Source: Candidatus Cloacimonadota bacterium (GTDB lineage: Bacteria > Cloacimonadota > Cloacimonadia > Cloacimonadales > PWNZ01). From it: a stretch of 64,000 bases of DNA. The stretch lies in contig PWOA01000103.1 in NCBI GenBank assembly GCA_003564155.1, forward strand, positions 9,875 to 73,874, read 5' to 3'. Made by a program: the position numbers and the translations under genes. Below, piece by piece: positions 25,334-61,537 of this stretch. The notes under the pieces were generated by a model. That model saw only the letters and a program-made list of their open reading frames with translations. It was not told where the DNA came from and ran no database searches. Within the stretch, counting starts at the first letter, position 1; the number at the start of each line of letters is the position of its first letter.

Positions 25334-26536
25334 TTAATCTTCAGTCTTTAGTCTGAATGTATTTTTATAAGTCAAACTGTAGCTGTATTTGATAAGTATA
25401 GGAGTTGCAATAGATGTAATTATGACCATGATTATGGTTGTAGAGAGTATGTCTATATCAATCAAATTGTTATGATAGGCCATGAAACTGATTATCAAAG
25501 CTACTTCACCTCTTGGAACCATACCAATACCGATTCTCAATGCACGAGTAAATCCAAAACGGGAAATTAATGCCCCAATCAAAGATCCAAGAACTTTACT
25601 GAATATAGCTATTAATATAAATAATACTTGGAAAAGTGGTTTGAAATTCAAAGCTTTAAGGTTTAATCCTAAACCGATACTGACAAAAAAGATGTCGATA
25701 AATAAACACCTTCCCAGGTTATTTATACCGGTAAACACGGAATCTTTATAGTCTGTTTGCCCCATTATCAATCCACAAATAAAAGCTCCCGTAAGAGCAG
25801 CTAATCCTAGTAATTCGGCAAACCAAGCAAACATGAATATAAGTGCTACAACTAAAGAAAGAATGGCGTTATCCATGGATAATCTTCGAATGTTAAGAAT
25901 AATGTTCAATATGATATATCTTCCAACTAAATAGGATACTACAAAGAACATAATTATTTTCAACATTGATATGATCAATGTTTTATGAATAAAATAATCC
26001 CCTGTTCCGGTATGTAGTGAAATACTAAAGACTAAGGATATAATTATTATACATATTATATCGTCGATAATGGCACTGTTAACAATACAACGGCCTTCAA
26101 TACTATTGAATTTATTGACATCAATTAACGTCATTAAAGAAACACTTATACTCGTAGCAGTAAATATTGTGCCGACCAGTACACTTGAGACAAAGCTATA
26201 TCCATAAATCATACTCAAACTGAAACCGGATATTAATGGTATTATTATTCCTCCAATAGCTGGAAATATTGCCTGGACGGATTCTTTTTTTAATCTGTTT
26301 AAATTCATCTCTATTCCGGCATTAAACATTAAAAATAACACACCGGCTTCAGAGATCCATCTAATAATTAGTGTATTCTCAGAAAGATTTAGCAGACTAG
26401 GACCTAGCACGATCCCCAATAAAATTAATCCTATAACCGGCGGGAATTTAATTTTTAAAAATAGAGGTCGGATGATATTAGTTAGTAGAATAATGACTGC
26501 TAACTGGAGTATAATCTTAAAAATAACTTCATTCAT
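25334..26536 (-). CDS. CPA2-family cation:proton antiporter (Kef/NapA-like, membrane domain only), copy 2
   Basis: 400 aa with about 12 TM helices. Na_H_Exchanger-type motifs include PPVIGLILLGIVLGPS and MFNAGIEMN. There is no C-terminal RCK/KTN domain. It is a paralog of 27399-28595. Confidence 0.85.
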   Translation of the reverse strand: MNEVIFKIILQLAVIILLTNIIRPLFLKIKFPPVIGLILLGIVLGPSLLNLSENTLIIRWISEAGVLFLMFNAGIEMNLNRLKKESVQAIFPAIGGIIIPLISGFSLSMIYGYSFVSSVLVGTIFTATSISVSLMTLIDVNKFNSIEGRCIVNSAIIDDIICIIIISLVFSISLHTGTGDYFIHKTLIISMLKIIMFFVVSYLVGRYIILNIILNIRRLSMDNAILSLVVALIFMFAWFAELLGLAALTGAFICGLIMGQTDYKDSVFTGINNLGRCLFIDIFFVSIGLGLNLKALNFKPLFQVLFILIAIFSKVLGSLIGALISRFGFTRALRIGIGMVPRGEVALIISFMAYHNNLIDIDILSTTIIMVIITSIATPILIKYSYSLTYKNTFRLKTED

Positions 26537-26577
26537 AGTATTAATTAAATATGAAATATCGGCTGATTAATTGATGA

Positions 26578-27396
26578 TCAAATAAACTCATCAGAATGCC
26601 CAATAATTTCTTTGAGACTAAAAACTTGGATAAATCCATTATTAGGTTTATTGAAGTCAATGCCTTCTTCTTTCATAAGGGATGCTATTTGACTTGGAAG
26701 TTTGTTGTCGGATATTGTAGCAAATATTAAATTCGTTTCCGGGCTCTTAATAGAGTTTCTGAGTTTTAATCCGGCAAAAATTGGGATTTCATAGGCAATA
26801 CGTTTAGATAATGAGGAAGCAGAAACTATTGAAGCATTGCCAATTCCCATTTCGACGAGCGATGTCAGCAAGTCTGCCAATTTTTCTCTTTTATGTAAGG
26901 TTATGACTAATAAGCTTTTATCTTCCTGATTATTAGAGCCATTGTGCAAATCATCCTTTTGTAACAAATTAATTACTTCATCAGGAGTTGAGCAAGTTAA
27001 TAATTTAGAAACCAAATCTGTATTTCTGACTATTCGAGATGCGTTTGCCAATAGTTTTAAGTATTCTTTATTGTTAGCAGAATGACATCCAATTAAAAGT
27101 ACCAATTTAGCGTTTCCTCGTACTGGACTTTCAAAATCAATTCCTTCTTTACTAATTATTATTGTAAGAAACAGTTTTTTGGCAGATGTACAGTGAGCAT
27201 GTGGAATAGCGATTTCCGGGAGAAACTCTGTATTACCGATTTTTTCTCTATCCATCAACGATACATAAAAACTTGTCGGATTAATGACAAGTCCTTTATT
27301 CGCAAGATCATTACTAATAAAGCGGAAAAGTTCTTTTTTATTTTTTACATTTGGATTTATATATATGATTCTTTGATTAGTATGGTCAAGTAACAC
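26578..27396 (-). CDS. PTS EIIA(Fru/Ntr)-like domain fused to a PII-like domain, copy 2
   Basis: The N-terminal ~150 aa form an EIIA type-2 fold with the phospho-His motif PEIAIPHAH. The C-terminal ~110 aa follow a beta-alpha-beta-beta-alpha-beta PII-like pattern (LLVITLHKREKLADLLTSLVEMGIGNASIVSASS...GFIQVFSLKEIIG). Confidence 0.7.
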   Translation of the reverse strand: MLLDHTNQRIIYINPNVKNKKELFRFISNDLANKGLVINPTSFYVSLMDREKIGNTEFLPEIAIPHAHCTSAKKLFLTIIISKEGIDFESPVRGNAKLVLLIGCHSANNKEYLKLLANASRIVRNTDLVSKLLTCSTPDEVINLLQKDDLHNGSNNQEDKSLLVITLHKREKLADLLTSLVEMGIGNASIVSASSLSKRIAYEIPIFAGLKLRNSIKSPETNLIFATISDNKLPSQIASLMKEEGIDFNKPNNGFIQVFSLKEIIGHSDEFI

Positions 27397-27398
27397 GG

Positions 27399-28595
27399 TT
27401 ATTCCTCATGATTTTTAAGAGAGAAAGTTTCTTTCCTTGTTGTGACATAACTATATTTGATTAAAAAAGGTGCTATCATGGAAGTAACTATAACCATAAT
27501 AATTGTTGTTGATAATAGTTCGGCAGAAATAAGACCACGCTGAAAAGCCGCTGAGCTAATTATTAATGACACTTCTCCTCTGGGGATAAGCCCTGCACCA
27601 ATACGTAATGATCTGGTGACATCAAAACGAGAAATAAGAGCACCTAAAAATGAACCTATAAATTTGCTAAACATTGCAAAAAATATAAACAACACTAAAA
27701 AAATAGGGTGAAAGGTCAATACTCTTAAATTTATACCTAAACCGATACTAACAAAAAAAACATCAACAAAGAATGACTTACCAATTTGAGATATACCGGT
27801 ATCAATAAAATGACGAGATTCGGTTTGACCAATAAAAAAACCGCTTAAAAGTGCTCCGGTAATGGCTTCTAGACCAAGCAACTCTGCAAACCAAGCGTAG
27901 AGAAAGATAAACACTATGCTCAAAGATAATAATGAATTTTCCAAGTTTAACCACTTACTGTTAATAAAGAGGTTGATAATAATATATTTTCCCACTATGT
28001 AAGTGACTACGAAATAAATCGTTATCTTTAGCAGAGGGATAAGGCCTGAGTAATATATTGACGCAGTCCCTTCATAAAAAGCGACACTAAAAAGGATTGA
28101 TATAATAATTATACTGAAAATATCGTTTAATATAGCGCTATTAACAATACACCGGCCTTCGACACTGTTAAACTTATCGATATCAATTAATGTCATTAAA
28201 GGAACACTAATACTGGCAGCTGCAAAAATTATCCCAATAATGAAGCTACTTGTTAAGTCGTGATTGAATAAATAAGTTATTAGGAAGCCACCTATAAAAG
28301 GAAGTACTATCCCACCTATGGCCGGGAAACTAGCTTTTTTGGAATCTTCTTTCAACCTTTTAATGTTTGTCTGAATACCGGCACTAAAAATGAGCAGTAA
28401 AACACCTATTTGAGCAATAACTTCAATAGTTAGATTAAGCTCAATAATATTCAACAGGCTAGGACCTAATAGCTTACCAACAAGGATTAAACCAATAACC
28501 GGTGGTATTCTTAATTTGATTGAAATCGCACGTACAATATTAGTAAAGATTAGGATAACTGCAAGGCTAAAGAAAATTTGTGTTGTTTGGTGCAT
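27399..28595 (-). CDS. CPA2-family cation:proton antiporter (membrane domain only), copy 1
   Basis: 398 aa, colinear with 25334-26536 and more than half identical by eye. It shares motifs such as PPVIGLILVG, FPAIGG and EGRCIVNSAI. Confidence 0.85.
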   Translation of the reverse strand: MHQTTQIFFSLAVILIFTNIVRAISIKLRIPPVIGLILVGKLLGPSLLNIIELNLTIEVIAQIGVLLLIFSAGIQTNIKRLKEDSKKASFPAIGGIVLPFIGGFLITYLFNHDLTSSFIIGIIFAAASISVPLMTLIDIDKFNSVEGRCIVNSAILNDIFSIIIISILFSVAFYEGTASIYYSGLIPLLKITIYFVVTYIVGKYIIINLFINSKWLNLENSLLSLSIVFIFLYAWFAELLGLEAITGALLSGFFIGQTESRHFIDTGISQIGKSFFVDVFFVSIGLGINLRVLTFHPIFLVLFIFFAMFSKFIGSFLGALISRFDVTRSLRIGAGLIPRGEVSLIISSAAFQRGLISAELLSTTIIMVIVTSMIAPFLIKYSYVTTRKETFSLKNHEE

Positions 28596-28657
28596 AATAT
28601 CTATAGAATATTTTGAATTAATAATGAGAAAAAATCTTCAGATTTATGTTAACATTT

Positions 28658-29485
28658 TTAAAGGTCGATATCTTCGTCATAGTTTCCAATGATTTCCTGA
28701 GCTTCAATTAATTGTATAAAGCCTGTACCTTTTTTATTAAAGTTTATGTTGTTTTCGTTAAGCAGCTTGACTAACCTATGAGCCAATTCAGAATCATTAA
28801 TATGGCATAAAATTAAATATGACTCTTTTTTCTTATTTTTATCAGAATAATAAAGACCTGAAAATACTGGTATATCGTATGATATTCGATTACTCAACGA
28901 AGAGACTTCTATTACCGACGCATTTGTTATTCCCAACTCAACTAAAGTTGATAGTAAATCATTAAGTCGATGTGGTAAGTGAAAGGTGATAATCATTTGA
29001 TATATTTTCTGAGGTTTATCAGATACTTCATCATCTTTATCGAATTCTTCTAAAATCTCAATGACTTGACCGGGAGTGTTCACATTTTTTAGTTTATTTT
29101 TAAATACTCCATTTTTCAACAGACGGGCTGACTTAGCTAATAGTTGTAAATATTCTTTATTATGTTTATCGGAAGTACCAAAAAAGAAAACAATATTTAC
29201 ATCTCCGAGATCCGGGTTTCCATAATCAAGACCATCTTTAATAACAACTATGCTCAGAAAAAGTTTTATCACTGAATCGGATCTTGCATGGGGAAGAGCT
29301 ATGCCTGGTATTAGTTCCGTACTTGATAATTCTTCTCTTTCTTTGAGTAATTGTAAAAAAACTTTATTGCTCATAATATAGTCAAGGTTATAGAGATGGT
29401 TAACCATTTTCTCAAAAAGCTCATCTTTATTTTCAACGTGAGGATTAATAAATATGAGATCTTTGTTTACATAGTGAGATAACAT
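28658..29485 (-). CDS. PTS EIIA(Fru/Ntr)-like domain fused to a PII-like domain, copy 1
   Basis: The EIIA motif is PGIALPHARS and the C-terminal PII-like module reads MIITFHLPHRLNDLLSTLVELGITNASVIEVSS...GFIQLIEAQEIIG. It is a paralog of 26578-27396. Confidence 0.7.
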   Translation of the reverse strand: MLSHYVNKDLIFINPHVENKDELFEKMVNHLYNLDYIMSNKVFLQLLKEREELSSTELIPGIALPHARSDSVIKLFLSIVVIKDGLDYGNPDLGDVNIVFFFGTSDKHNKEYLQLLAKSARLLKNGVFKNKLKNVNTPGQVIEILEEFDKDDEVSDKPQKIYQMIITFHLPHRLNDLLSTLVELGITNASVIEVSSLSNRISYDIPVFSGLYYSDKNKKKESYLILCHINDSELAHRLVKLLNENNINFNKKGTGFIQLIEAQEIIGNYDEDIDL

Positions 29486-34988: not shown

Positions 34989-35066
34989 TGGTCGGGATGA
35001 CTAGATTTGAACTAGCGACCTTTCGGTCCCGAACCGAACGCGCTGACCGAACTGCGCTACATCCCG
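34989..35066 (-). tRNA. tRNA-Pro (anticodon CGG)
   Basis: The reverse complement is CGGGATG-TA-GCGC-AGTTCGGTCA-GCGC-G-TTCGG-TTCGGGA-CCGAA-AGGTC-GCTAG-TTCAAAT-CTAGT-CATCCCG-ACCA. This folds into a perfect cloverleaf of 78 nt with an encoded CCA. Confidence 0.92.
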
Positions 35067-49009: not shown

Positions 49010-49468
49010 ATGGTAACGGAAGGATTCAAAGAATTAATTGATATGGCTATAGAACAAGAAATCGAAGCTTATAATTTCTATACTCGAGTTTCTCAATCTT
49101 TAACAGATTTCGGTTTAGTAAAAATATTTTCAGAACTGGCTGGTGAAGAACAAGGTCATAAAGCTTTATTGGAAGAAATTAAAAAAGATGTCAATTTACA
49201 TTTCAGATTTGATGAACCAAATAAAGACTATCACTTAGCAGAAAAAACTGAATTACCACCCTTGTCGATTGATATGAAACCTGCAGATGCTTTTGCTTTG
49301 GCAATGAAAAAAGAACAACAGGCAGCAGAGTTTTATCGGGAATTAGCTGTAAGAGCCAATAATCAAGAAATCAAAAGAGCATGTAATCATCTGTCAAATA
49401 TGGAATTACAACATAAACAGGAAATCGAGAATGCGTACATTGATGTTGCCTATCCTGAGTCATTTTAG
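49010..49468 (+). CDS. ferritin-like/rubrerythrin-type diiron four-helix-bundle protein (no rubredoxin domain)
   Basis: Two E...ExxH half-sites are present: EIEAYNFY...GEEQGHKALL and EQQAAEFY...MELQHKQEI. 152 aa. Confidence 0.75.
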   Translation: MVTEGFKELIDMAIEQEIEAYNFYTRVSQSLTDFGLVKIFSELAGEEQGHKALLEEIKKDVNLHFRFDEPNKDYHLAEKTELPPLSIDMKPADAFALAMKKEQQAAEFYRELAVRANNQEIKRACNHLSNMELQHKQEIENAYIDVAYPESF

Positions 49469-49498: not shown

Positions 49499-49593
49499 AG
49501 AGAGGATGGGACTGGTGTTCCGGCTGGTCTGCAAAACCAGTAACGGGCGGATAAAACCGTCCGTGGCAGGTTCGATTCCTGCCCTCTCAGCCA
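49499..49593 (+). tRNA. tRNASec-like class II tRNA with GCA (Cys) anticodon
   Basis: The hand fold is as follows:
- Acceptor stem 49500-49505 pairs with 49583-49588, with A49499 opposite A49589.
- A 6-bp D stem closes a 4-nt loop.
- A 6-bp anticodon stem closes the loop CTGCAAA.
- The variable arm is 24 nt with an 8-bp stem.
- The T arm is GCAGG-TTCGATT-CCTGC, followed by G73 and an encoded CCA.
- Total length is 95 nt. Confidence 0.7.
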
Positions 49594-49646: not shown

Positions 49647-50057
49647 ATGAAAGTTGCCCCATATACTGATTCGGGTTTACAAGATGTAAATGTTGAAGGT
49701 GCAAAAAAAACGAAAATTAGGTGGTTGATATCAGATAAAGATAATGCCCCAAACTTTGCTATGCGAATGTTTGAAGTAAGTCCGGGAGGTTTCACTCCTT
49801 ATCATTCACATAGTTTTGAGCATGAAGTATTTGTCGTTGATGGAGAAGGTGTATTTGTAACAGCAGAGAAAGAATATCCCTTCAAAGCAGGTGATGTGAT
49901 ATTTGCTGATCCGGATCTTGAGCATCAATTCAGAAATACAGGCAAAAACACACTTAAATTCCTGTGTTCAGTTCCGTTAGAAAAGCCTAAGAAGGAAGAA
50001 GAATTACCATACAAAACAATTAATCCTTTTGCTTCAGGTAAAGCTAACAATTGTTGA
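49647..50057 (+). CDS. cupin-domain protein
   Basis: The cupin motifs are GGFTPYHSHSFEHEVFVVDGEG and GDVIFADPDLEHQFRNTG. GGAGG lies 5 nt upstream. Confidence 0.75.
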   Translation: MKVAPYTDSGLQDVNVEGAKKTKIRWLISDKDNAPNFAMRMFEVSPGGFTPYHSHSFEHEVFVVDGEGVFVTAEKEYPFKAGDVIFADPDLEHQFRNTGKNTLKFLCSVPLEKPKKEEELPYKTINPFASGKANNC

Positions 50058-55202: not shown

Positions 55203-57860
55203 ATGGAACTCATAATAAGTCATTCCAATTGCGATTTTGATAGTTTTGCTTCAATGGTAGCTGCTTCTCTTCTTTATCCTGAAGCTAAAATATGTATGGT
55301 AGGATCACCTGAAACTAATCTCAAACTGTTCTTAAATGATAACGAGTATCGTTTTAACTTAATCAAGGAAAAAAATGTTAACCCTTTAGAGATAACAAAA
55401 CTAATTATACTTGATAACAGAGATCCCAAGAGGATGGGGAAAATCGGACAGTATCTTATAGATATCCAAGATAAACAACCTAAAACAAAAAAACCTGTTA
55501 TAATCTGCTATGATCACCATCCCGACACAGAAGATGATATAATAAGTGATTACACTCATACGGAATTAACCGGAGCTTGTACCACTATATTGTTAAGTTT
55601 TATCAACCGATGTGGTATACAACTGACTCCTTTTCAAGCTTCGGTATTTGCCCTCGGCATCTACGAAGATACCGGTAATTTTCTTAACGTTAATACTACA
55701 CATAAAGATTTAGCAGCTGCATCTTTTCTTTTTACTGTTGGAGCATCTTTGGATTTCATAAAATCTTATTTACCGAAAGATTTTACCTCGCAGCAGTTAG
55801 CTATTATCAATCAAATGATATCGAACTGTGAAACGATAATTTTAAAAGGTATAACGGTATCTTTTATCCAAATTAAGATAGAATTATCAGGTTTTCATGA
55901 TGATTTAGCATGGCTTTTACAAACAGTAAAAGCCAGTCGCAACTTAAAACTGGTTTTCTGTTTTGCGGTTAGAAGAAATAAGCTACATATTATTGCCCGT
56001 AATGACTATGATTTTATCCATCTGGATAAAATCATGTATAACTTAGGTGGGGGCGGACATAAATCAGCAGGTTTTGCTTCTATGGATGTTAAAGATGGAG
56101 ATAAAAGAGAGTATTTACATCACAAAAAAAATGAGATTATTAACCAACTTGAACAACAAATACTCAAATATGGTATAGTTGCAAACATCATGACAAGCCC
56201 TGCAGATACTGTGTCTCCCGATACTCCGATTCATGCAGCACGAAACCTTTTACTTAATAATAATTATAGTACAGTTTTGGTGGCTATAAATAATGAGGTT
56301 GTTGGAATATTAACAAAAAAAGATATTGGTAAAGCTATCCATCATAATATGGGTTCTTTACATGTTGAAAATTGTATGTCGGTCAATGTGATAACCGTTA
56401 GGGAGGATGAATCTGTCTATAATGCTTATAAAATGTTGATTGATTACGGCATTGGCAGGTTACCGGTTATCGATGATAAGGGACAATTGGCAGGTATTAT
56501 AACTCGTAGCGATCTGCTGATTCATCATTATCAGTTTATAACAGCCCGGAAAATTGATACTACCGACTTTGATAATGTAAAAGGGATAATGCATAAAAAT
56601 ATTGATAAAAAAATTATTGAACAACTTAAACAAGCCGGTCATATTGCTGACATATTACGCATGAATGCATACGTAGTCGGTGGCTTTGTCAGAGATCTTA
56701 TTTTGCAACAGCCGAATTATGACTTGGATATTGTTGTTGAAGGAGATGGTTTAGTCTTTGCCCAAGAATATTGCCGGAAATTCGGTAGACATATTAAGAC
56801 ATTTCCTAAGTTCGGAACTGCCTTTGTAACACAAAAAAATGGGAAAAGTATTGATATATCTACTGCCAGAACAGAGCACTATCCCACTGTTGGTTGTCTG
56901 CCTGAAGTTAGATTTTCACGAATCCAAAACGACCTTTTCAGACGAGATTTTACAATTAATAGTTTAGCTATCCAAATAAATCCTAATGTTTTCGGGAGAC
57001 TTTATGATTTTTATGGGGGCAGAAGAGATCTTAAACTAGGTTATATCAGAGTACTGAATAATTTCAGTTTTATGGAAGACCCTATCAGGATTTTGAGAGC
57101 GATTCGTTTTGAACAAAGATTTGGCTTTATTATTGATGAAAAAACAACTTACTTACTGCGTAAAAGTCTACAGCTTTTAAGTTTAAAAAATGTTTCTCCT
57201 GAAAGAATCAAAGCAGAGTTAATTTATTCATGTAAGAAAGGACCCGTTGACAAGTTTTTTTCCCGGTTAGAAGAATTAGAAATACTTAAACAGATCAACC
57301 GTAATATTTCATTCACATCACATAATAAAATTATCTGTCAACGTTTGTCTGAAATCATTATTTGGTTCCAAAATAGTTTTCCAAAAGAAAACATCGATGA
57401 ATGGATTTGTTATCATCTTGCTTTGATAAACGGATTATCTTTACGGATAAAAAATAAATTTGCCAGAAGCTTTAAATATTCCTCGAAATTTATCGAATCA
57501 GTGATAAAAACTGACTATATTTGCAGAAATATTCTTCCATCATTAGTTCATTATATTGATGAAGGGGAAATTGCTATAGAGCTTAAAAAACTTAATATGG
57601 AATCGATTCTTTTTATTGTTGCTCTTTGCGAGAATAAAAACATAAAAGATAATATTATTCGCTATATTACAATTAACCGCTTTATTAAAACAGAGTTGGA
57701 TGGTAATGATTTAATGAAAATTGGACTTCAACAAGGTAAAGATGTTGGTATTGTTCTTAAAGAGTTGCTCAAGGGGAAAATTAACCAAAAGTTTAAAGAT
57801 AGTAAGGATGAGATTGAATATGTTAAGCACTTTATCTGTGAAAATGATAGAGTGAATTAA
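55203..57860 (+). CDS. DHH/DHHA1 phosphoesterase + tandem CBS + class II tRNA nucleotidyltransferase (CCA-adding enzyme/poly(A) polymerase family) fusion protein
   Basis: The DHH motifs are HSNCDFDSF and CYDHHPD, and the DHHA1 motif is GGGGHKSAAG. Two CBS modules follow. The PolyA_pol head carries VVGGFVRD, DLDIVVEG, RTEHY and RRDFTINSLA. Confidence 0.85.
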   Translation: MELIISHSNCDFDSFASMVAASLLYPEAKICMVGSPETNLKLFLNDNEYRFNLIKEKNVNPLEITKLIILDNRDPKRMGKIGQYLIDIQDKQPKTKKPVIICYDHHPDTEDDIISDYTHTELTGACTTILLSFINRCGIQLTPFQASVFALGIYEDTGNFLNVNTTHKDLAAASFLFTVGASLDFIKSYLPKDFTSQQLAIINQMISNCETIILKGITVSFIQIKIELSGFHDDLAWLLQTVKASRNLKLVFCFAVRRNKLHIIARNDYDFIHLDKIMYNLGGGGHKSAGFASMDVKDGDKREYLHHKKNEIINQLEQQILKYGIVANIMTSPADTVSPDTPIHAARNLLLNNNYSTVLVAINNEVVGILTKKDIGKAIHHNMGSLHVENCMSVNVITVREDESVYNAYKMLIDYGIGRLPVIDDKGQLAGIITRSDLLIHHYQFITARKIDTTDFDNVKGIMHKNIDKKIIEQLKQAGHIADILRMNAYVVGGFVRDLILQQPNYDLDIVVEGDGLVFAQEYCRKFGRHIKTFPKFGTAFVTQKNGKSIDISTARTEHYPTVGCLPEVRFSRIQNDLFRRDFTINSLAIQINPNVFGRLYDFYGGRRDLKLGYIRVLNNFSFMEDPIRILRAIRFEQRFGFIIDEKTTYLLRKSLQLLSLKNVSPERIKAELIYSCKKGPVDKFFSRLEELEILKQINRNISFTSHNKIICQRLSEIIIWFQNSFPKENIDEWICYHLALINGLSLRIKNKFARSFKYSSKFIESVIKTDYICRNILPSLVHYIDEGEIAIELKKLNMESILFIVALCENKNIKDNIIRYITINRFIKTELDGNDLMKIGLQQGKDVGIVLKELLKGKINQKFKDSKDEIEYVKHFICENDRVN

Positions 57861-58937: not shown

Positions 58938-59396
58938 TTGGGAGAAAAAGATAGACATTTTCATTTAGGTTCCAGTATAAAGGGGATATATCGTTACGAT
59001 GGCAAGAAAAAAGTACTTCGTCCTCTTATAGGAATGAATGTACCGGCAGGTTTCCCTTCTCCGGCGCAGGATTATATTGAAGACACTTTAGATCTGAACG
59101 ACTATCTAGTCCCTCATCCTAATTCTACTTATTTTGTAAGAGTGGAAGGTGATTCAATGATAGATGCCGGCATATTACCTGATGACATACTAGTTGTCGA
59201 TAGATCATTAGAAGCATCTAATAACAAAGTAGTTATAGCTGTTGTTGACAATGAACTAACCGTTAAAAGATTAAAGATAGATAATAAGAAATGCTATTTA
59301 GTTCCGGATAACAAGAGCTATGATTCGATTGAGATAGAAGACTGGATGGATTTAAAGATATGGGGATTAGTTACATATGCTATTCATAAGTTGTAA
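58938..59396 (+). CDS. umuD: UmuD-like S24 self-cleaving peptidase (translesion polymerase accessory subunit)
   Basis: The putative cleavage site is PA-GFPSPAQDY. The Ser nucleophile lies in GDSMIDAG and the Lys in TVKRLK. It starts at TTG with GAGG 9 nt upstream and has no HTH domain. Confidence 0.85.
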   Translation: MGEKDRHFHLGSSIKGIYRYDGKKKVLRPLIGMNVPAGFPSPAQDYIEDTLDLNDYLVPHPNSTYFVRVEGDSMIDAGILPDDILVVDRSLEASNNKVVIAVVDNELTVKRLKIDNKKCYLVPDNKSYDSIEIEDWMDLKIWGLVTYAIHKL

Positions 59397-59432
59397 TTAT
59401 TATTTGATTATGTTAATAATCGCAGGTAGTAA

Positions 59433-60860
59433 ATGAATATATATGCTCTCGTAGACTGTAATCACTTTTATGTGTCTTGTGAAAGAGTATTTAGACCGGA
59501 TTTAGAGAACAAACCGGTAGCAGTTCTTTCCAACAATGATGGATGTATTGTAGCTTTATCTCCTGAGGTCAAGAAACTGGGAATTAAACGAGGAACTCCT
59601 TGGTTCAAAATCAAGCACCTTATCCGTAAACATAATATTGAAATATTCTCTTCTAACTATACACTTTATGGTGATTTATCCTTAAGAGTAATGTCAATAT
59701 TAGAAAGATTTACACCCGACTTAGAAGTATATTCAATTGATGAAGCATTTCTCGACTTGACGGGAATAGCAGAGCATGATCTCATCGAATACGGTAAAAA
59801 AATAAAAAAAGCTGTTCTTAAATGTACAGGTATACCGGTTTCAATTGGTATAGCTCCCACAAAAACATTAGCTAAAGCTGCAAATATATTAGCAAAAAAG
59901 AATAAAAGTAACTTAGGGGTTTTTGTTATTGATAATGAACAAGTCCGACGGAAGGTTCTGGAAGCTGCTGATTGCAAAAATATCTGGGGTATTGGTTATC
60001 GTTATGCGGAGAAACTAAAACGTAATGGGATAAACAATGCCTGGCAATTAACTCAGGTTGATGATAACTGGATATTAAAAAATATGACAGTAATTGGTTT
60101 GAGGATGGTTAATGAACTGCGAGGTAAGCCTCACATTGAAAATATAGAAAACAATAATATCTCCTGCATAAATAAAGTGAAAGAAGAAAATTCAGATTAT
60201 ACTTGTTTCAAACACCGGGATGGGGTAAGAGATAGTCAAAAATCTGTATCAATTAGTAAAGTACAAGGTAGTGATTTATTGAAAAAAAGTTATGAAGAAC
60301 CGCGTAAAAGTATAGTTTCTTCACGCTCTTTTGGCAAACCGGTTACAGATATAAATGAGTTGGGTGAAGCTCTTTCATCGTATTGTATTACTGCATTATA
60401 CAAGTTACGTCAACAAAACTCCGCAGCGAAGAGAATAACAATATTTTTGACTACCAATCCTTTCAAGGACGAGCCTCAGTACGCTAATTACCGAGAAGCA
60501 ATACTTCCCGGTTATTCGGCTTATCCACCCGATTTTTGCAATATATCTCAAGAAATTCTCAAAGCTATCTATCGTAAAGGTTATAAGTACAAAAAAGTTG
60601 GTGTTATGATAACTGAGATTATCCGGCAAGAAGATGTACCCCAAGATATTTTTATAAGTTCTTATCCCGACGATTATCGCTCTGATGTCATGAAATGTGT
60701 AGATAATATTAATAGTAAATGGGGACAGGGCACTTTAACATTTGCAGGAGCAGGGATAAAACAAAACTGGAGAATGCGGCGGGATTTACTTTCTCCAAAG
60801 TATACCACTTCATTTGCTGAATTACCAGTTGTCAAAGCCAATAGATGTAAGGATATTTAA
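59433..60860 (+). CDS. umuC: Y-family DNA polymerase UmuC (Pol V catalytic subunit-like)
   Basis: Motifs are ALVDCNHFYVSCE, SNNDGCIVA, YSIDEAFLDLTG and SIGIAPTKTLAKAAN. It lies immediately downstream of umuD. An insertion of ~50 aa lies before the little-finger segment SSRSFG. Confidence 0.92.
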   Translation: MNIYALVDCNHFYVSCERVFRPDLENKPVAVLSNNDGCIVALSPEVKKLGIKRGTPWFKIKHLIRKHNIEIFSSNYTLYGDLSLRVMSILERFTPDLEVYSIDEAFLDLTGIAEHDLIEYGKKIKKAVLKCTGIPVSIGIAPTKTLAKAANILAKKNKSNLGVFVIDNEQVRRKVLEAADCKNIWGIGYRYAEKLKRNGINNAWQLTQVDDNWILKNMTVIGLRMVNELRGKPHIENIENNNISCINKVKEENSDYTCFKHRDGVRDSQKSVSISKVQGSDLLKKSYEEPRKSIVSSRSFGKPVTDINELGEALSSYCITALYKLRQQNSAAKRITIFLTTNPFKDEPQYANYREAILPGYSAYPPDFCNISQEILKAIYRKGYKYKKVGVMITEIIRQEDVPQDIFISSYPDDYRSDVMKCVDNINSKWGQGTLTFAGAGIKQNWRMRRDLLSPKYTTSFAELPVVKANRCKDI

Positions 60861-60874
60861 AAAGGATTAACAAT

Positions 60875-61537
60875 ATGTGTGGTAGATTTGCTCTATTTTC
60901 TGATATGATGACAATAATTAAATACTGTGATGCTTTAACCGGAAAGATTATGTGGCATCCATGTTATAACATACCACCTGGTAGTGATGTACCATTAATA
61001 GTTAAAGAGAACAATTCTCAAGTTCTTTCTTTGGTAAGGTGGGGATTTCTGCCACATTTTAGAAATGGTTCGAAAGTCATAACCTTTAATATTATAAATG
61101 CTAAAGCAGAAACTGTTGCAGAGAAGAGTGTGTTCAAGGATGCATTTGAAAATAACAGATGCTTAATTCCTGCTAATGGATTTTATGAATGGCGATCTAA
61201 TGATAAGCAACCATATTTTTTCACTCTCAAAGATCAGCAGCTCTTTTTTTTTGCTGGGATTAGAAGCGGTACAATTATGCAAAAAAAAGATGTTCACGTA
61301 GATACTTTTGCGATAATTACTACCACAGCTAATGATTTAGTACAAAGAGTTCACCACAGAATGCCTGCCATCTTAAAAGAAGAACATATTGGAGATTGGC
61401 TTTTTACAAAGGATGTTAAGAAGTTACAAAATATGCTTAATCCTTATGATAGCAGTGCAATGTCTAGTATACCGGTATCACGTGAAGTAAATAATACTCA
61501 CAACAACTATCCTCAGCTAATAAATCCTCTTGATTAG
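60875..61537 (+). CDS. SOS response-associated peptidase (SRAP; YedK/HMCES family abasic-site sensor)
   Basis: The catalytic N-terminus is MCGRF. Other motifs are YNIPPG, RWGFLP, INAKAETV, PANGFYEW and HHRMPAIL. Confidence 0.9.
   Translation: MCGRFALFSDMMTIIKYCDALTGKIMWHPCYNIPPGSDVPLIVKENNSQVLSLVRWGFLPHFRNGSKVITFNIINAKAETVAEKSVFKDAFENNRCLIPANGFYEWRSNDKQPYFFTLKDQQLFFFAGIRSGTIMQKKDVHVDTFAIITTTANDLVQRVHHRMPAILKEEHIGDWLFTKDVKKLQNMLNPYDSSAMSSIPVSREVNNTHNNYPQLINPLD

What the first reader, a model, noticed from the sequence alone, without database searches (positions are those of the whole stretch)
49499..49593. tRNASec-shaped tRNA gene carrying a cysteine (GCA) anticodon
This GC-rich 95-nt island sits in an AT-rich spacer between a rubrerythrin-like gene and a cupin gene. 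It folds as a cloverleaf that reproduces most hallmarks of bacterial selenocysteine tRNA.

The fold I derived by hand:
- The D stem is T49507-C49512 paired with G49517-G49522 (6 bp, two of them G-U) closing a 4-nt loop, TGGT.
- The anticodon stem follows directly: G49523-T49528 paired with A49536-T49541, 6 bp.
- The variable arm is 24 nt (49542-49565). Its 8-bp stem pairs 49543-49550 with 49557-49564.
- The T arm is GCAGG/CCTGC with loop TTCGATT.
- The discriminator is G49590, and CCA is encoded at 49591-49593.
- The 7-nt anticodon loop reads C-T-G-C-A-A-A, so the anticodon is GCA (49531-49533), which decodes UGC/UGU. It is not UCA.

Why this is odd: canonical tRNACys is a short class I tRNA with U73. 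A long variable arm plus G73 are SerRS/tRNASec-type features. The gene could therefore direct Ser, or Sec after SelA conversion, into Cys codons. Alternatively it could be an unusual Cys isoacceptor or a regulatory tRNA-like RNA. Metagenomic surveys of tRNASec have reported rare variants with non-UCA anticodons, so natural recoding is a live possibility.

Caveats:
- The acceptor/T configuration I can draw is 7/5, not the bacterial Sec 8/5.
- The 1:72 position would be an A-A apposition (A49499/A49589).
- No selA, selB or selD is in this window.
Basis: partly seen in the sequence, partly recalled or inferred. Interest (0 to 1): 0.85.

Follow-up and report, generated by a model that had tools for sequence, protein, structure and literature searches.

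The report
Selenocysteine tRNA with cysteine anticodon
This is a real, conserved selenocysteine-type tRNA gene of a Cloacimonadota bacterium whose anticodon has switched from UCA to GCA, so that selenocysteine is most likely inserted at special cysteine codons (UGC/UGU followed by a hairpin) instead of at UGA; this kind of natural recoding was first reported in 2016, so the gene is unusual but not new.

Summary
Window 49499-49593 (+) encodes a 95-nt tRNA. ARAGORN calls it tRNA-Cys(GCA), and Rfam's tRNA-Sec model scores it 60.7 bits (threshold 47).

It belongs to a family of 95-nt tRNASec genes with these features:
- a 7/5 acceptor/T branch
- a single linker nucleotide
- a 5-6 bp D stem with a 4-nt loop
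- a 6-bp anticodon stem
- an 8-bp variable stem
- an invariant G73

This is the published "Cloacimonetes-type" tRNASec.

In 9 of 18 other Cloacimonadota species the same GCA tRNA lies directly upstream of selA, with selB following where the locus reaches that far. That is the selC position. In loci with a neighbouring formate dehydrogenase gene, the selenocysteine site reads UGC or UGU when the tRNA is GCA, and UGA when the tRNA is UCA. The same SECIS-like hairpin follows in both cases.

The best explanation is SerRS charging, SelA conversion to Sec, and SelB/SECIS-directed insertion of Sec at selected Cys codons. G73 rules out the Cys-charged selC*/tRNAReC class.

In the window's own sub-clade the tRNA sits apart from selA, selB and fdhA. 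The rest of that genome could not be reached, so I could not test whether the Sec machinery is present there.

The kind is known (Mukai 2016). Interest is moderate.

The parts
49499..49593 (+). Complete tRNASec(GCA) gene (selC orthologue): 95 nt including the encoded G73-CCA
   Evidence: ARAGORN; Rfam tRNA-Sec 60.7 bits; fold; 100-sequence alignment and covariation
49499..49505 (+). Acceptor stem, 5' strand. A49499 is position 1 and is unpaired against A49589. G49500-G49505 pair with C49583-C49588.
   Evidence: Sequence. Helix 1 is 92% paired with 5 of 7 pairs changed on both sides. Position 1:72 is unpaired in 16 of 17 GCA tRNAs.
49506..49506 (+). Single linker nucleotide between the acceptor stem and the D stem, a hallmark of the Cloacimonetes-type tRNASec
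   Evidence: Sequence; description in PMC5330540 section 10
49507..49522 (+). D arm: 5 conserved bp (49508-49512 with 49517-49521) plus an optional sixth pair U49507-G49522; 4-nt loop UGGU
   Evidence: Columns 10-14 pair with 19-23, with covariation in the three inner pairs (11:22, 12:21, 13:20) and the outer two invariant. Column pair 9:24 is paired in 48%.
49523..49541 (+). Anticodon arm: 6-bp stem and 7-nt loop CUGCAAA
   Evidence: helix 3 is 96% paired; 5 of 6 pairs changed on both sides
49531..49533 (+). Anticodon GCA, which reads UGC/UGU. Homologues elsewhere carry UCA at the same three positions.
   Evidence: Column 33 is G in all 17 GCA sequences and T in all 83 UCA sequences.
49542..49565 (+). 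Long variable arm: 8-bp stem (49543-49550 with 49557-49564) and 6-nt loop
   Evidence: helix 4 is 94% paired; 6 of 8 pairs changed on both sides
49566..49582 (+). T arm: GCAGG / UUCGAUU / CCUGC
   Evidence: It is invariant in the alignment, but the search pattern selected for it, so that invariance is not informative.
49583..49589 (+). Acceptor stem, 3' strand (CCUCUC plus A72)
49590..49593 (+). Discriminator G73 and the encoded CCA end
   Evidence: G at column 92 is invariant in 100 sequences. CCA is encoded in all 17 GCA genes and also in the window's tRNA-Pro.
49010..49468 (+). Rubrerythrin-family gene ending 31 nt upstream of the tRNA. It is the conserved syntenic partner of selC in both GCA and UCA loci and may be co-transcribed with it.
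   Evidence: Pfam PF02915; synteny in 7 GCA loci and UCA loci L142 and L151
49647..50057 (+). Cupin_2 gene. In the window's sub-clade it occupies the place that selA holds in other Cloacimonadota. Context only.
   Evidence: Pfam PF07883; synteny with L013, L031, L064, L070 and L080

Best explanation
The gene is the selC (tRNASec) of a Cloacimonadota bacterium. It has the lineage's 12-bp (7/5) 'Cloacimonetes-type' architecture, and its anticodon has changed from UCA to GCA.

Proposed mechanism:
1. SerRS serylates the tRNA, recognising the long variable arm and G73. Its recognition does not use the anticodon.
2. SelA binds the tRNASec-type D arm and converts Ser to Sec, using selenophosphate made by SelD.
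3. SelB·GTP binds Sec-tRNASec(GCA).
4. SelB also binds a SECIS hairpin inside the mRNA and delivers the tRNA only to the UGC/UGU codon about 12 nt upstream of that hairpin.

At such sites Sec competes with ordinary Cys-tRNACys·EF-Tu. The protein is therefore made with Sec when selenium is available and with Cys, rather than truncated, when it is not. Ordinary Cys codons without a SECIS are left alone, because the tRNA is not an EF-Tu substrate. The systematically unpaired 1:72 position may contribute to that exclusion.

What is shown here:
- the tRNA anatomy and its conservation
- selC-selA-selB linkage in orthologous loci
- the joint switch of anticodon and codon in the adjacent formate dehydrogenase, with a conserved SECIS-like hairpin

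What is inferred:
- every biochemical step
- that the window's own genome carries selA, selB, selD and UGY/SECIS targets somewhere else
For: 1. tRNA-Sec model match. Rfam tRNA-Sec scores above its gathering threshold for the window gene (60.7 bits) and for all 18 Cloacimonadota orthologues (52.8-62 bits), with exactly one tRNA-Sec hit per locus.

2. Cloverleaf supported by covariation. On 100 homologues, 20 of 32 pairs change on both sides and no shuffle out of 500 reaches this. G73 is invariant.

3. Published architecture. A 7/5 branch with one linker nucleotide matches the published 'Cloacimonetes type tRNASec' (PMC5330540 section 10). 12-bp tRNASec species are acknowledged in PMC5389517.

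4. selC position.
- In L005, L017, L041, L052, L078, L081, L083, L084 and L086 the GCA tRNA is immediately upstream of a SelA gene.
- In five of these (L017, L041, L081, L083, L084) a SelB gene follows. In the other four no SelB match was found in the stretch held.
- Pfam on the L081 pair gives SelA at 5e-123 plus Se-cys_synth_N, and GTP_EFTU, the SelB beta-barrel and SelB-wing_3 for SelB.
- UCA homologues from metagenomes have the same selC-selA-selB layout.

5. Codon and anticodon switch together.
- Formate dehydrogenase next to GCA tRNAs has TGC (L002, L081) or TGT (L078) at the HCARL-x-HSS site.
- Formate dehydrogenase next to UCA tRNAs has TGA at that site (L151 twice, L177, L104, L109, L144).
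- In five of these genes (L002, L078, L081, one L151 gene, L177) I folded the downstream sequence. All have the same hairpin 12 nt downstream, with loop GGUCU.
- Reading those sequences, two stem pairs change in a compensating way at synonymous sites (A-U/C-G and U-A/G·U/C-G).
- The spacing matches E. coli fdhF as I recall it from memory. G at loop position 1 or 2 fits the bacterial SECIS consensus quoted in PMC13582414.

6. Purifying selection in the window's sub-clade.
- The tRNA is 87-96% identical (87-91 of 95 positions) to L013, L031, L064, L070 and L080.
- Flanking DNA is at background similarity.
- Neighbouring proteins are only 51-77% identical.

7. Precedent. Aeromonas salmonicida tRNASec(GCA), which also has a 12-bp branch, inserts Sec at a Cys codon (PMC10778597 and PMC11415595).
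Against: - The 64-kb window holds no selA, selB, selD, formate dehydrogenase gene or known selenoprotein family.
- In the window's sub-clade (L013, L031, L064, L070, L080) the tRNA is flanked by cupin and M42 peptidase genes instead of selA/selB.
- I could not reach the rest of any genome of that sub-clade. The window's Rbr protein is only on a 2.5-kb Logan contig, and the cupin is not on record. So the Sec machinery is unverified for this organism.
- The codon/anticodon correlation rests on 3 GCA-linked and 6 UCA-linked FDH genes, which are phylogenetically related.
- A Cys codon followed by a hairpin is also what a recently converted Cys-type FDH would look like.
- No expression, charging or selenium-labelling data exist for this lineage in anything I could read.
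- A 12-bp branch is the length EF-Tu prefers (PMC5389517, PMC10778597), so exclusion from EF-Tu is assumed, not shown.
Confidence: 0.72

Rival explanations
1. Relic gene. The window's sub-clade has lost the selenocysteine trait (selA, selB, selD, Sec-type FDH), and the GCA tRNA is a leftover that is no longer used in translation, or is only serylated and idle.
For: - There is no sel gene or selenoprotein family in the 64 kb.
- selA/selB and fdhA are replaced by unrelated neighbours in all six members of the sub-clade.
- There is no TGA-interrupted gene in the window.
Against: - The tRNA is 87-96% identical across six species whose neighbouring proteins are 51-77% identical and whose flanks are at background similarity.
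- Differences inside the stems preserve pairing, for example U-A to C-G in the anticodon stem of L080.
- G73, CCA, the D loop, the T loop, U33 and the variable-arm sequence are all intact and the same as in selA-linked copies.
- A useless gene would have decayed over this divergence.
Confidence: 0.08
2. The tRNA is a true tRNASec delivered by SelB, but it reads UGA through a G34·A mismatch, either alone or in addition to UGY. Selenoproteins in these genomes would then still be UGA-encoded.
For: [quoted passage not shown]
- From memory of the Vargas-Rodriguez 2018 abstract, tRNASec with a GCA anticodon is also said to recode UGA.
- SelB/SECIS delivery relaxes the demands on decoding.
Against: - The only Sec sites I could see next to GCA tRNAs are TGC or TGT, not TGA.
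- No credible TGA-interrupted gene exists in 123 kb of GCA loci or in the window. UCA loci show at least 10.
Confidence: 0.07
3. The tRNA is a tRNASec-like tRNACys (selC*/tRNAReC class). CysRS would charge it with Cys and SelB would carry it, so Cys goes in at SECIS-marked codons.
For: - It has the GCA anticodon, a major CysRS identity element.
- It has the tRNASec shape.
- The same genome scan recovered many genuine selC* genes in Nitrospirota, Bacillota and Deltaproteobacteria.
Against: - The discriminator is G73, invariant in 100 family members. The class is defined by U73 (PMC5389517, PMC7609411, PMC13582414), and every selC* hit ends in U73-CCA.
- Published selC* genes coexist with a canonical selC and often precede a second selB*. 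Here the tRNA precedes selA, which is needed only to make Sec.
- It is the only tRNA-Sec hit in each locus.
Confidence: 0.05
4. The tRNA is a general missense tRNA. With a canonical-length 12-bp branch it would be accepted by EF-Tu and would insert Ser (or Sec) at any UGC/UGU codon, giving proteome-wide low-level mistranslation.
For: - The 12-bp acceptor/T branch is the EF-Tu-preferred length (PMC5389517; PMC10778597).
- A long variable arm plus G73 makes it a SerRS substrate.
- From memory of Baron & Böck 1991, shortening the E. coli tRNASec acceptor stem to 7 bp shifts binding from SelB to EF-Tu.
Against: - UCA homologues with the very same 95-nt architecture serve UGA/SECIS sites next to selA/selB, so the architecture works with SelB in these lineages.
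- Replacing catalytic and metal-binding Cys with Ser across the proteome would be strongly deleterious. Yet the gene is stably inherited across many genera.
- Position 1:72 is unpaired in 16 of 17 GCA tRNAs. From established knowledge of initiator tRNA, that feature weakens EF-Tu binding.
Confidence: 0.04

Closest known systems
Cloacimonetes-type tRNASec (7/5, 12-bp acceptor/T branch), described by Mukai et al. 2016, Angew Chem 55:5337, as summarised in Santesmasses et al. 2017 (PMC5330540)
   Same: - 7-position acceptor stem plus 5-bp T stem
- one nucleotide missing from the acceptor/D linker
- G73, a long variable arm, a 6-bp anticodon stem, and a tRNASec-type D arm with a 4-nt loop
- the same phylum: 18 GTDB Cloacimonadota species carry near-identical genes
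- the selC-selA-selB gene order in half of them
   Different: - I could not read the 2016 paper, so I cannot say whether it already lists the GCA anticodon for this type.
- In the window the gene is detached from selA/selB.
- In this lineage the first acceptor position is usually unpaired (C·A, A·G, A·A).
Aeromonas salmonicida tRNASec(GCA), which inserts Sec at a Cys codon (UGU) of formate dehydrogenase (Mukai 2016, via PMC10778597, PMC11415595, PMC6267555)
   Same: - a genuine tRNASec with a Cys anticodon and a 12-bp branch
- the target is the Sec site of a formate dehydrogenase, written as a Cys codon followed by a SECIS
- anticodon and codon match
   Different: - The phylum differs (Gammaproteobacteria versus Cloacimonadota).
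- That case was confirmed by 75Se labelling and mass spectrometry; this one rests on comparative sequence evidence only.
- Here the switch is spread over several deep lineages of a phylum rather than being reported for strains of one species.
selC* tRNACys / tRNAReC (Mukai 2017, PMC5389517; Vargas-Rodriguez 2018)
   Same: - tRNASec-like shape
- GCA anticodon in most members
- presumed SelB-type delivery
- recovered by the same search pattern
   Different: - The class has U73 (Cys identity) where this tRNA has G73.
- The class has 8/5 or 8/4 branches where this tRNA has 7/5.
- Class members coexist with a canonical selC and often precede selB* and sometimes cysS*; this tRNA precedes selA-selB.
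- They are proposed to insert Cys at UGA, not Sec at UGY.
Canonical bacterial tRNASec (E. coli selC, 8/5, UCA)
   Same: - From memory of the E. coli sequence, the anticodon-arm and T-arm sequences are very similar (GGCUGGACUUCAAAUCCAGU and GGCAGGUUCGACUCCUGU in E. coli).
- 6-bp D stem with a 4-nt loop, long variable arm, G73.
- The Rfam tRNA-Sec model matches along its full length.
   Different: - One acceptor base pair fewer (12 rather than 13 bp).
- One linker nucleotide fewer.
- Anticodon GCA instead of UCA.
allo-tRNA (Mukai 2017, PMC5389517)
   Same: - 12-bp branch
- tRNASec-like D arm
- long variable arm
- G73 or U73
- anticodons that are often not those of serine
   Different: - allo-tRNAs are 8/4 or 9/3; this tRNA is 7/5.
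- allo-tRNAs are not linked to selA/selB and are found in Clostridia, Proteobacteria and Acidobacteria.

Membership tests
Bacterial tRNASec (selC), Cloacimonetes type | Matches the tRNA-Sec covariance model above its curated threshold | tested here: met
   RF01852 scores 60.7 bits against a gathering score of 47, full length 1-91. All 18 orthologues score 52.8-62 bits.
Bacterial tRNASec (selC), Cloacimonetes type | 12-bp acceptor/T branch in 7/5 configuration with one nucleotide missing from the acceptor/D linker (PMC5330540, section 10) | tested here: met
   There are 7 positions between the 5' end and the single linker A49506, and a 5-bp T stem. The layout is the same, without gaps, in 100 homologues. 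Position 1:72 is A·A here and is paired in 61% of the family.
Bacterial tRNASec (selC), Cloacimonetes type | Discriminator G73 | tested here: met
   G49590 is invariant in 100 sequences. The encoded CCA that follows fixes the 3' end.
Bacterial tRNASec (selC), Cloacimonetes type | Extended D stem (up to 6 bp) with a 4-nt loop, a 6-bp anticodon stem and a long variable arm | tested here: met
   The D stem has 5 conserved pairs plus an optional sixth. The anticodon stem is 96% paired and the variable stem 94% paired, all with covariation.
Bacterial tRNASec (selC), Cloacimonetes type | UCA anticodon reading UGA | tested here: not met
   The anticodon is GCA. Non-UCA anticodons are documented within tRNASec (PMC7609411, PMC10778597), so this does not exclude membership. 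It does define the variant.
Bacterial tRNASec (selC), Cloacimonetes type | Genomic association with selA/selB | tested here: inconclusive
   Met for orthologues in 9 of 18 Cloacimonadota loci, where SelA is directly downstream; SelB follows in 5 of those 9. Not met in the window or its five closest relatives. The rest of those genomes was out of reach.
Bacterial tRNASec (selC), Cloacimonetes type | Serylated by SerRS, converted by SelA, bound by SelB and not by EF-Tu | not testable with these tools
   This needs biochemistry.
tRNASec(GCA) that recodes Cys codons to Sec (Aeromonas salmonicida type) | A target gene carries UGC/UGU at a known Sec position, followed by a SECIS element | tested here: met
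   Shown for orthologous loci only. FDH in L002 and L081 has TGC and in L078 has TGT, each followed by a hairpin with loop GGUCU. UCA loci have TGA at the same site, with the same hairpin in the two genes folded (L151, L177). No target gene was found in the window itself.
tRNASec(GCA) that recodes Cys codons to Sec (Aeromonas salmonicida type) | Selenium is actually incorporated at that codon | not testable with these tools
   This needs 75Se labelling or mass spectrometry.
selC* tRNACys / tRNAReC | U73 discriminator (CysRS identity) | tested here: not met
   G73 is present here and in all 100 family members. Genuine selC* hits from the same scan end in U73-CCA.
selC* tRNACys / tRNAReC | 8-bp acceptor stem (8/5, or 8/4 with an A51a bulge) | tested here: not met
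   The branch is 7/5 with no bulge.
selC* tRNACys / tRNAReC | Coexists with a canonical tRNASec(UCA) in the same genome | not tested
There is exactly one tRNA-Sec hit in each of the 18 loci and in the 64-kb window.
Canonical tRNACys | Class I tRNA (short variable loop, 7/5, 4-bp D stem) with U73 and GCA | tested here: not met
   It has a 24-nt variable arm, G73 and a tRNASec-type D arm. Only the anticodon fits.
allo-tRNA | 12-bp branch arranged as 8/4 or 9/3 | tested here: not met
   An 8/4 arrangement would need A49506 to pair with C49582, which it cannot. The 5-bp T stem is invariant.

The most novel reading that the evidence does not exclude
In the window's sub-clade the GCA tRNA has left the selA-selB/fdhA neighbourhood but stays under strong purifying selection. 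If those genomes turn out to lack selA/selB/selD, then a Ser-accepting tRNA (long variable arm, G73) with a Cys anticodon is being kept for something other than selenocysteine. Candidates include:
- a tRNA-dependent route from Ser-tRNA to Cys-tRNA
- conditional Ser-for-Cys mistranslation
- a non-translational role tied to the co-located rubrerythrin gene

A milder and more likely version is that whole Cloacimonadota lineages write all their selenoproteins with UGC/UGU. Their selenoproteome would then be invisible to UGA-based annotation, with the unpaired 1:72 position acting as the EF-Tu barrier.
Probability: 0.07. Interest if true: 0.85.

Novelty: already known. Interest (0 to 1): 0.4.

Why it matters
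Sense-codon recoding to selenocysteine is one of the few natural cases where one codon has two meanings inside one cell, chosen by an mRNA hairpin.

If the reading is right, several things follow:
- Standard annotation will call this gene tRNA-Cys, as ARAGORN does here.
- Standard annotation will also call every UGC/UGU-encoded selenoprotein of these abundant anaerobic-digester bacteria an ordinary Cys protein. Selenium use by Cloacimonadota would then be systematically under-counted.
- A Sec/Cys dual-coded site does not truncate the protein when selenium runs out. That bears on how the Sec trait is gained and lost.
- 12-bp tRNASec species and their SelA partners are already the raw material for engineered selenoprotein expression systems (PMC10778597, PMC6267555).

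None of this is conceptually new after Mukai et al. 2016. The value here is a clean set of comparative data for one phylum.

Tried and rejected
**Families rejected**
- selC*/tRNAReC membership: rejected because the discriminator is G73, not U73.
- allo-tRNA: rejected because no 8/4 or 9/3 arrangement can be drawn.
- Canonical tRNACys: rejected because of the long variable arm and G73.

**Alternative structure rejected**
- A longer acceptor stem made by pairing the 5' leader with G73-C74. Some Rfam alignments suggest it, but the leader is not conserved and the window cannot form it.

**Neighbouring genes as selenoproteins**
- The neighbouring rubrerythrin gene: rejected as a selenoprotein. Its homologues next to UCA tRNAs are uninterrupted.

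**Searches that found nothing useful**
- Promoter and terminator scan around the gene: nothing found. This is uninformative, because the scan covers only sigma-70-type promoters.
- TGA-interrupted genes in the window: only adjacent-gene or antisense artefacts.

**Attempts to reach the rest of the window's genome**
- The cupin protein is not on record.
- The rubrerythrin protein is only on a 2.5-kb Logan contig from SRR490128.
So selA/selB/selD, cysS, a canonical tRNACys and a possible second tRNASec could not be searched genome-wide.

**Papers I could not read**
- Mukai 2016, by DOI and as PMC4833512.
- A review, PMC5772603.
- Vargas-Rodriguez 2018, PMC6103700.
- The supplement of PMC5389517.

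For this reason I could not confirm in print that the GCA anticodon was already reported for Cloacimonetes.

**Not attempted**
- I ran no further search on SelA/SelB. Hits could not have been tied to the window's genome.
Full report
**1. The observation**

Window 49499-49593 (+) reads AGAGAGGAUGGGACUGGUGUUCCGGCUGGUCUGCAAAACCAGUAACGGGCGGAUAAAACCGUCCGUGGCAGGUUCGAUUCCUGCCCUCUCAGCCA.

- ARAGORN reports a tRNA with anticodon GCA at 49500-49589.
- Rfam's tRNA-Sec model (RF01852) matches it end to end at 60.7 bits, against a gathering score of 47.
- The minimum-free-energy fold is the hand-drawn cloverleaf, with z=-4.4 against shuffles.
- The gene is 58% GC in a window of about 33% GC.
- It lies between a Rubrerythrin-family gene (49010-49468) and a Cupin_2 gene (49647-50057).
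- The window's other tRNA, tRNA-Pro, also encodes its CCA. So the conserved ...N-G-C-C-A end of this gene is best read as N72, G73, CCA.

**2. Relatives**

One scan of the GTDB species genomes used a pattern tied to the D loop, a CUGCAAA anticodon loop, a long variable region and the T loop. It gave 89 loci, which fall into two groups.

- *Known selC\* group.* These come from Nitrospirota/Thermodesulfovibrionales, Bacillota of the Desulfotomaculum type, and Deltaproteobacteria.
  - They have 8-bp acceptor stems and end in U73-CCA.
  - They are the published selC* tRNACys / tRNAReC (PMC5389517, PMC7609411).
  - Several have a SelB-like gene downstream.
- *Cloacimonadota group.* Eighteen loci come from Cloacimonadota MAGs.
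  - Their tRNA is nearly the same as the window's: six Watson-Crick acceptor pairs, a usually unpaired 1:72, one linker nucleotide and G73-CCA.
  - The window therefore comes from a Cloacimonadota bacterium.
  - Its own species is not among the GTDB representatives, since no locus has an identical tRNA.

**3. What the architecture is**

A metagenome scan used the UCA version of the pattern plus the Cloacimonadota T arm. All are 95-nt tRNASec(UCA) genes of the same layout, and most sit directly upstream of selA-selB.

I aligned the 17 distinct GCA sequences with 83 distinct UCA sequences. The alignment needs no gaps. On the proposed cloverleaf:
- 94% of cells pair, against 36-50% in slid controls.
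- 20 of 32 pairs show changes on both sides.
- No shuffle out of 500 reaches the observed values.
- G73 is invariant.
- The T stem is invariant only because the pattern fixed it.
- The sixth D pair (49507:49522) is paired in 48% of sequences, so it is optional.

**4. Gene context shows the tRNA is selC**

- In L005, L017, L041, L052, L078, L081, L083, L084 and L086 the GCA tRNA lies immediately upstream of a gene of about 460 aa.
- In five of them (L017, L041, L081, L083, L084) a gene of about 650 aa follows.
- For L081, Pfam gives SelA (PF03841, 5e-123) with the SelA N-terminal domain for the first gene. For the second it gives GTP_EFTU, the SelB beta-barrel and the SelB winged helix.
- L081 reads fdhA - rubrerythrin - tRNA(GCA) - selA - selB. 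L002 has the same order with an insertion.
- UCA loci L142 and L151 read FDH - rubrerythrin - tRNA(UCA), with selA following in L142.
- Each GCA locus has exactly one tRNA-Sec hit.

The GCA gene is therefore the orthologue of selC with a changed anticodon, not an extra tRNA.

In a rough neighbour-joining tree of SelA, the GCA lineages (L084; L005 with L078; L017, L041 and L083; L081) group together with one UCA lineage. The switch is therefore old or recurrent within the phylum.

**5. The codon follows the anticodon**

The formate dehydrogenase alpha genes beside these tRNAs share the motif HCARL-x-HS(S/A)TVAGLAA. From memory of E. coli FdhF (CARVUHGPSVAGL), x is the selenocysteine position.

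| tRNA next to FDH | Codon at x | Loci |
|---|---|---|
| GCA | TGC | L002, L081 |
| GCA | TGT | L078 |
| UCA | TGA | L151 (two genes), L177, L104, L109, L144 |

I folded the downstream sequence in five of these genes: L002, L078, L081, one of the two L151 genes, and L177.
- In all five, a hairpin starts 12-15 nt after the first base of the codon.
- The stem is 6-8 bp and the loop is GGUCU.
- Between sequences, two stem pairs change in a compensating way at synonymous codon positions: A-U/C-G, and U-A/G·U/C-G.
- G at the first or second loop position fits the bacterial SECIS consensus quoted in PMC13582414.
- The spacing equals that of the E. coli fdhF SECIS as I remember it.

No credible TGA-interrupted gene occurs in 123 kb of GCA loci or in the window. 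UCA loci show at least ten. The simplest reading is that in GCA lineages Sec is written as UGC/UGU plus SECIS.

**6. Mechanism, and which steps are inferred**

From established knowledge of the bacterial Sec pathway:
- SerRS recognises the long variable arm and G73, and ignores the anticodon.
- SelA recognises the tRNASec D arm.
- SelB binds Sec-tRNASec and the SECIS.

Applied here, Sec-tRNASec(GCA) would be delivered only to UGY codons that precede a SECIS, in competition with Cys-tRNACys. This is the mechanism reported for Aeromonas salmonicida, whose tRNASec(GCA) also has a 12-bp branch (PMC10778597, PMC11415595, PMC6267555).

What is shown here is anatomy, conservation, operon context and the joint switch of codon and anticodon. 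All charging, conversion and delivery steps are inferred.

One further observation: position 1:72 is unpaired in 16 of 17 GCA tRNAs (C·A 8, A·G 5, A·A 3), against 23 of 83 UCA tRNAs. The two groups are phylogenetically confounded. By analogy with initiator tRNA, I suggest the mismatch helps keep a 12-bp tRNA off EF-Tu. That would matter more once the anticodon reads a common sense codon. This is speculation.

**7. The weak point for this window**

- The 64 kb contains housekeeping genes: IleRS, the hrcA-grpE-dnaK-dnaJ cluster, a class II (Asp/Asn/Lys-type) tRNA synthetase, methylmalonyl-CoA mutase, Mla-type transport genes, and others.
- It contains no selA, selB, selD, cysS, FDH or known selenoprotein family.
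- In the window and its five closest relatives (L013, L031, L064, L070, L080) the order is rubrerythrin - tRNA - cupin - M42 peptidase - ABC transporter. Here selC has been separated from selA/selB and fdhA.
- The tRNA is nevertheless 87-96% identical among these species. Flanking DNA is at background similarity and neighbouring proteins are 51-77% identical.
- Stem changes preserve pairing, and the variable-arm sequence is the same as in selA-linked copies. That argues for continued function of the same kind.

**8. Comparison with known families, and novelty**

The gene fails the defining test for selC*/tRNAReC (U73), for allo-tRNA (8/4 or 9/3) and for canonical tRNACys (class I, U73). It meets every structural criterion of the Cloacimonetes-type tRNASec except the UCA anticodon. 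Non-UCA anticodons are documented for tRNASec (PMC7609411, PMC10778597).

Both the architecture and the principle of Sec at a Cys codon via tRNASec(GCA) plus SECIS were published in 2016. I could not obtain that paper to see whether the two are already combined there for Cloacimonetes. Since the type was named in a paper about Sec recoding, I think this is likely.

I therefore rate the finding as already known. At most it is a new member of a known kind. Interest is moderate (0.4): it is a real and uncommon genetic-code variation that annotation pipelines mislabel, but a specialist would not be surprised by it.

Noticed in passing
window 49010-49468 with 49499-49593; also L013, L031, L064, L070, L080, L081, L002 (GCA) and L142, L151 (UCA): A rubrerythrin-family gene ends about 30 nt upstream of selC in the GCA loci, and 90-170 nt upstream in L080 (GCA) and the UCA loci L142 and L151. 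The linkage survives the loss of selA/selB and fdhA from the neighbourhood. The two may be co-transcribed. The reason for the linkage is unknown.
   Followed up: partly
Alignment A1, columns 1 and 91 (window 49499 and 49589): The first acceptor position is unpaired in 16 of 17 GCA tRNAs (C·A, A·G, A·A) but in only 23 of 83 UCA homologues. This may be an EF-Tu antideterminant, but the comparison is confounded by phylogeny.
   Followed up: partly
L108, L143, L172, L173 (metagenome loci with tRNASec(UCA)): A large secreted protein carries an in-frame TGA inside a motif conserved on both sides: STMGCYC(V/L)(D/S)-U-(S/G)(L/A)TPPG. In L172 it is about 900 aa and ends in a VYPNPF-type sorting tail. 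It is a candidate selenoprotein family encoded near selC.
   Followed up: no
L001, L004, L015, L028, L035, L046, L066: These are genuine selC* (U73) tRNACys genes of Nitrospirota and Deltaproteobacteria. All but L028 have a SelB-like gene directly downstream, 30-38% identical to Cloacimonadota SelB. L015 and L028 also have a formate dehydrogenase gene upstream with TGC at the Sec site. This matches the published selC*-selB* arrangement.
   Followed up: partly
window 25334-29485 (-): A tandem duplication of a two-gene unit: Na+/H+ exchanger (400 and 398 aa) plus a PTS EIIA-2 domain protein (272 and 275 aa).
   Followed up: no
window 58938-61537 (+): An SOS-type cluster: a LexA/UmuD-like S24 peptidase, a Y-family polymerase (IMS plus DUF4113) and an SRAP abasic-site peptidase.
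   Followed up: no
window 55203-57860 (+): An 885-aa fusion of a DHH domain, CBS domains and a PolyA_pol head domain with its RNA-binding domain. It looks like a CCA-adding enzyme or poly(A) polymerase. It is worth noting because tRNA genes here already encode CCA.
   Followed up: no
window 34989-35066 (-): An ordinary tRNA-Pro(CGG), 66.9 bits against Rfam tRNA, with an encoded CCA. Together with the tRNASec gene, these are the only two RNA genes Rfam finds in the 64 kb.
   Followed up: yes
L080, L017, L041, L083, L086, L052: Rfam's tRNA-Sec alignment starts 1-3 nt further 5' in these loci than the 95-nt gene. In L080, read by eye, the leader can pair with G73-C74. The leader is not conserved, so this is probably model-fitting rather than a longer acceptor stem.
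   Followed up: partly
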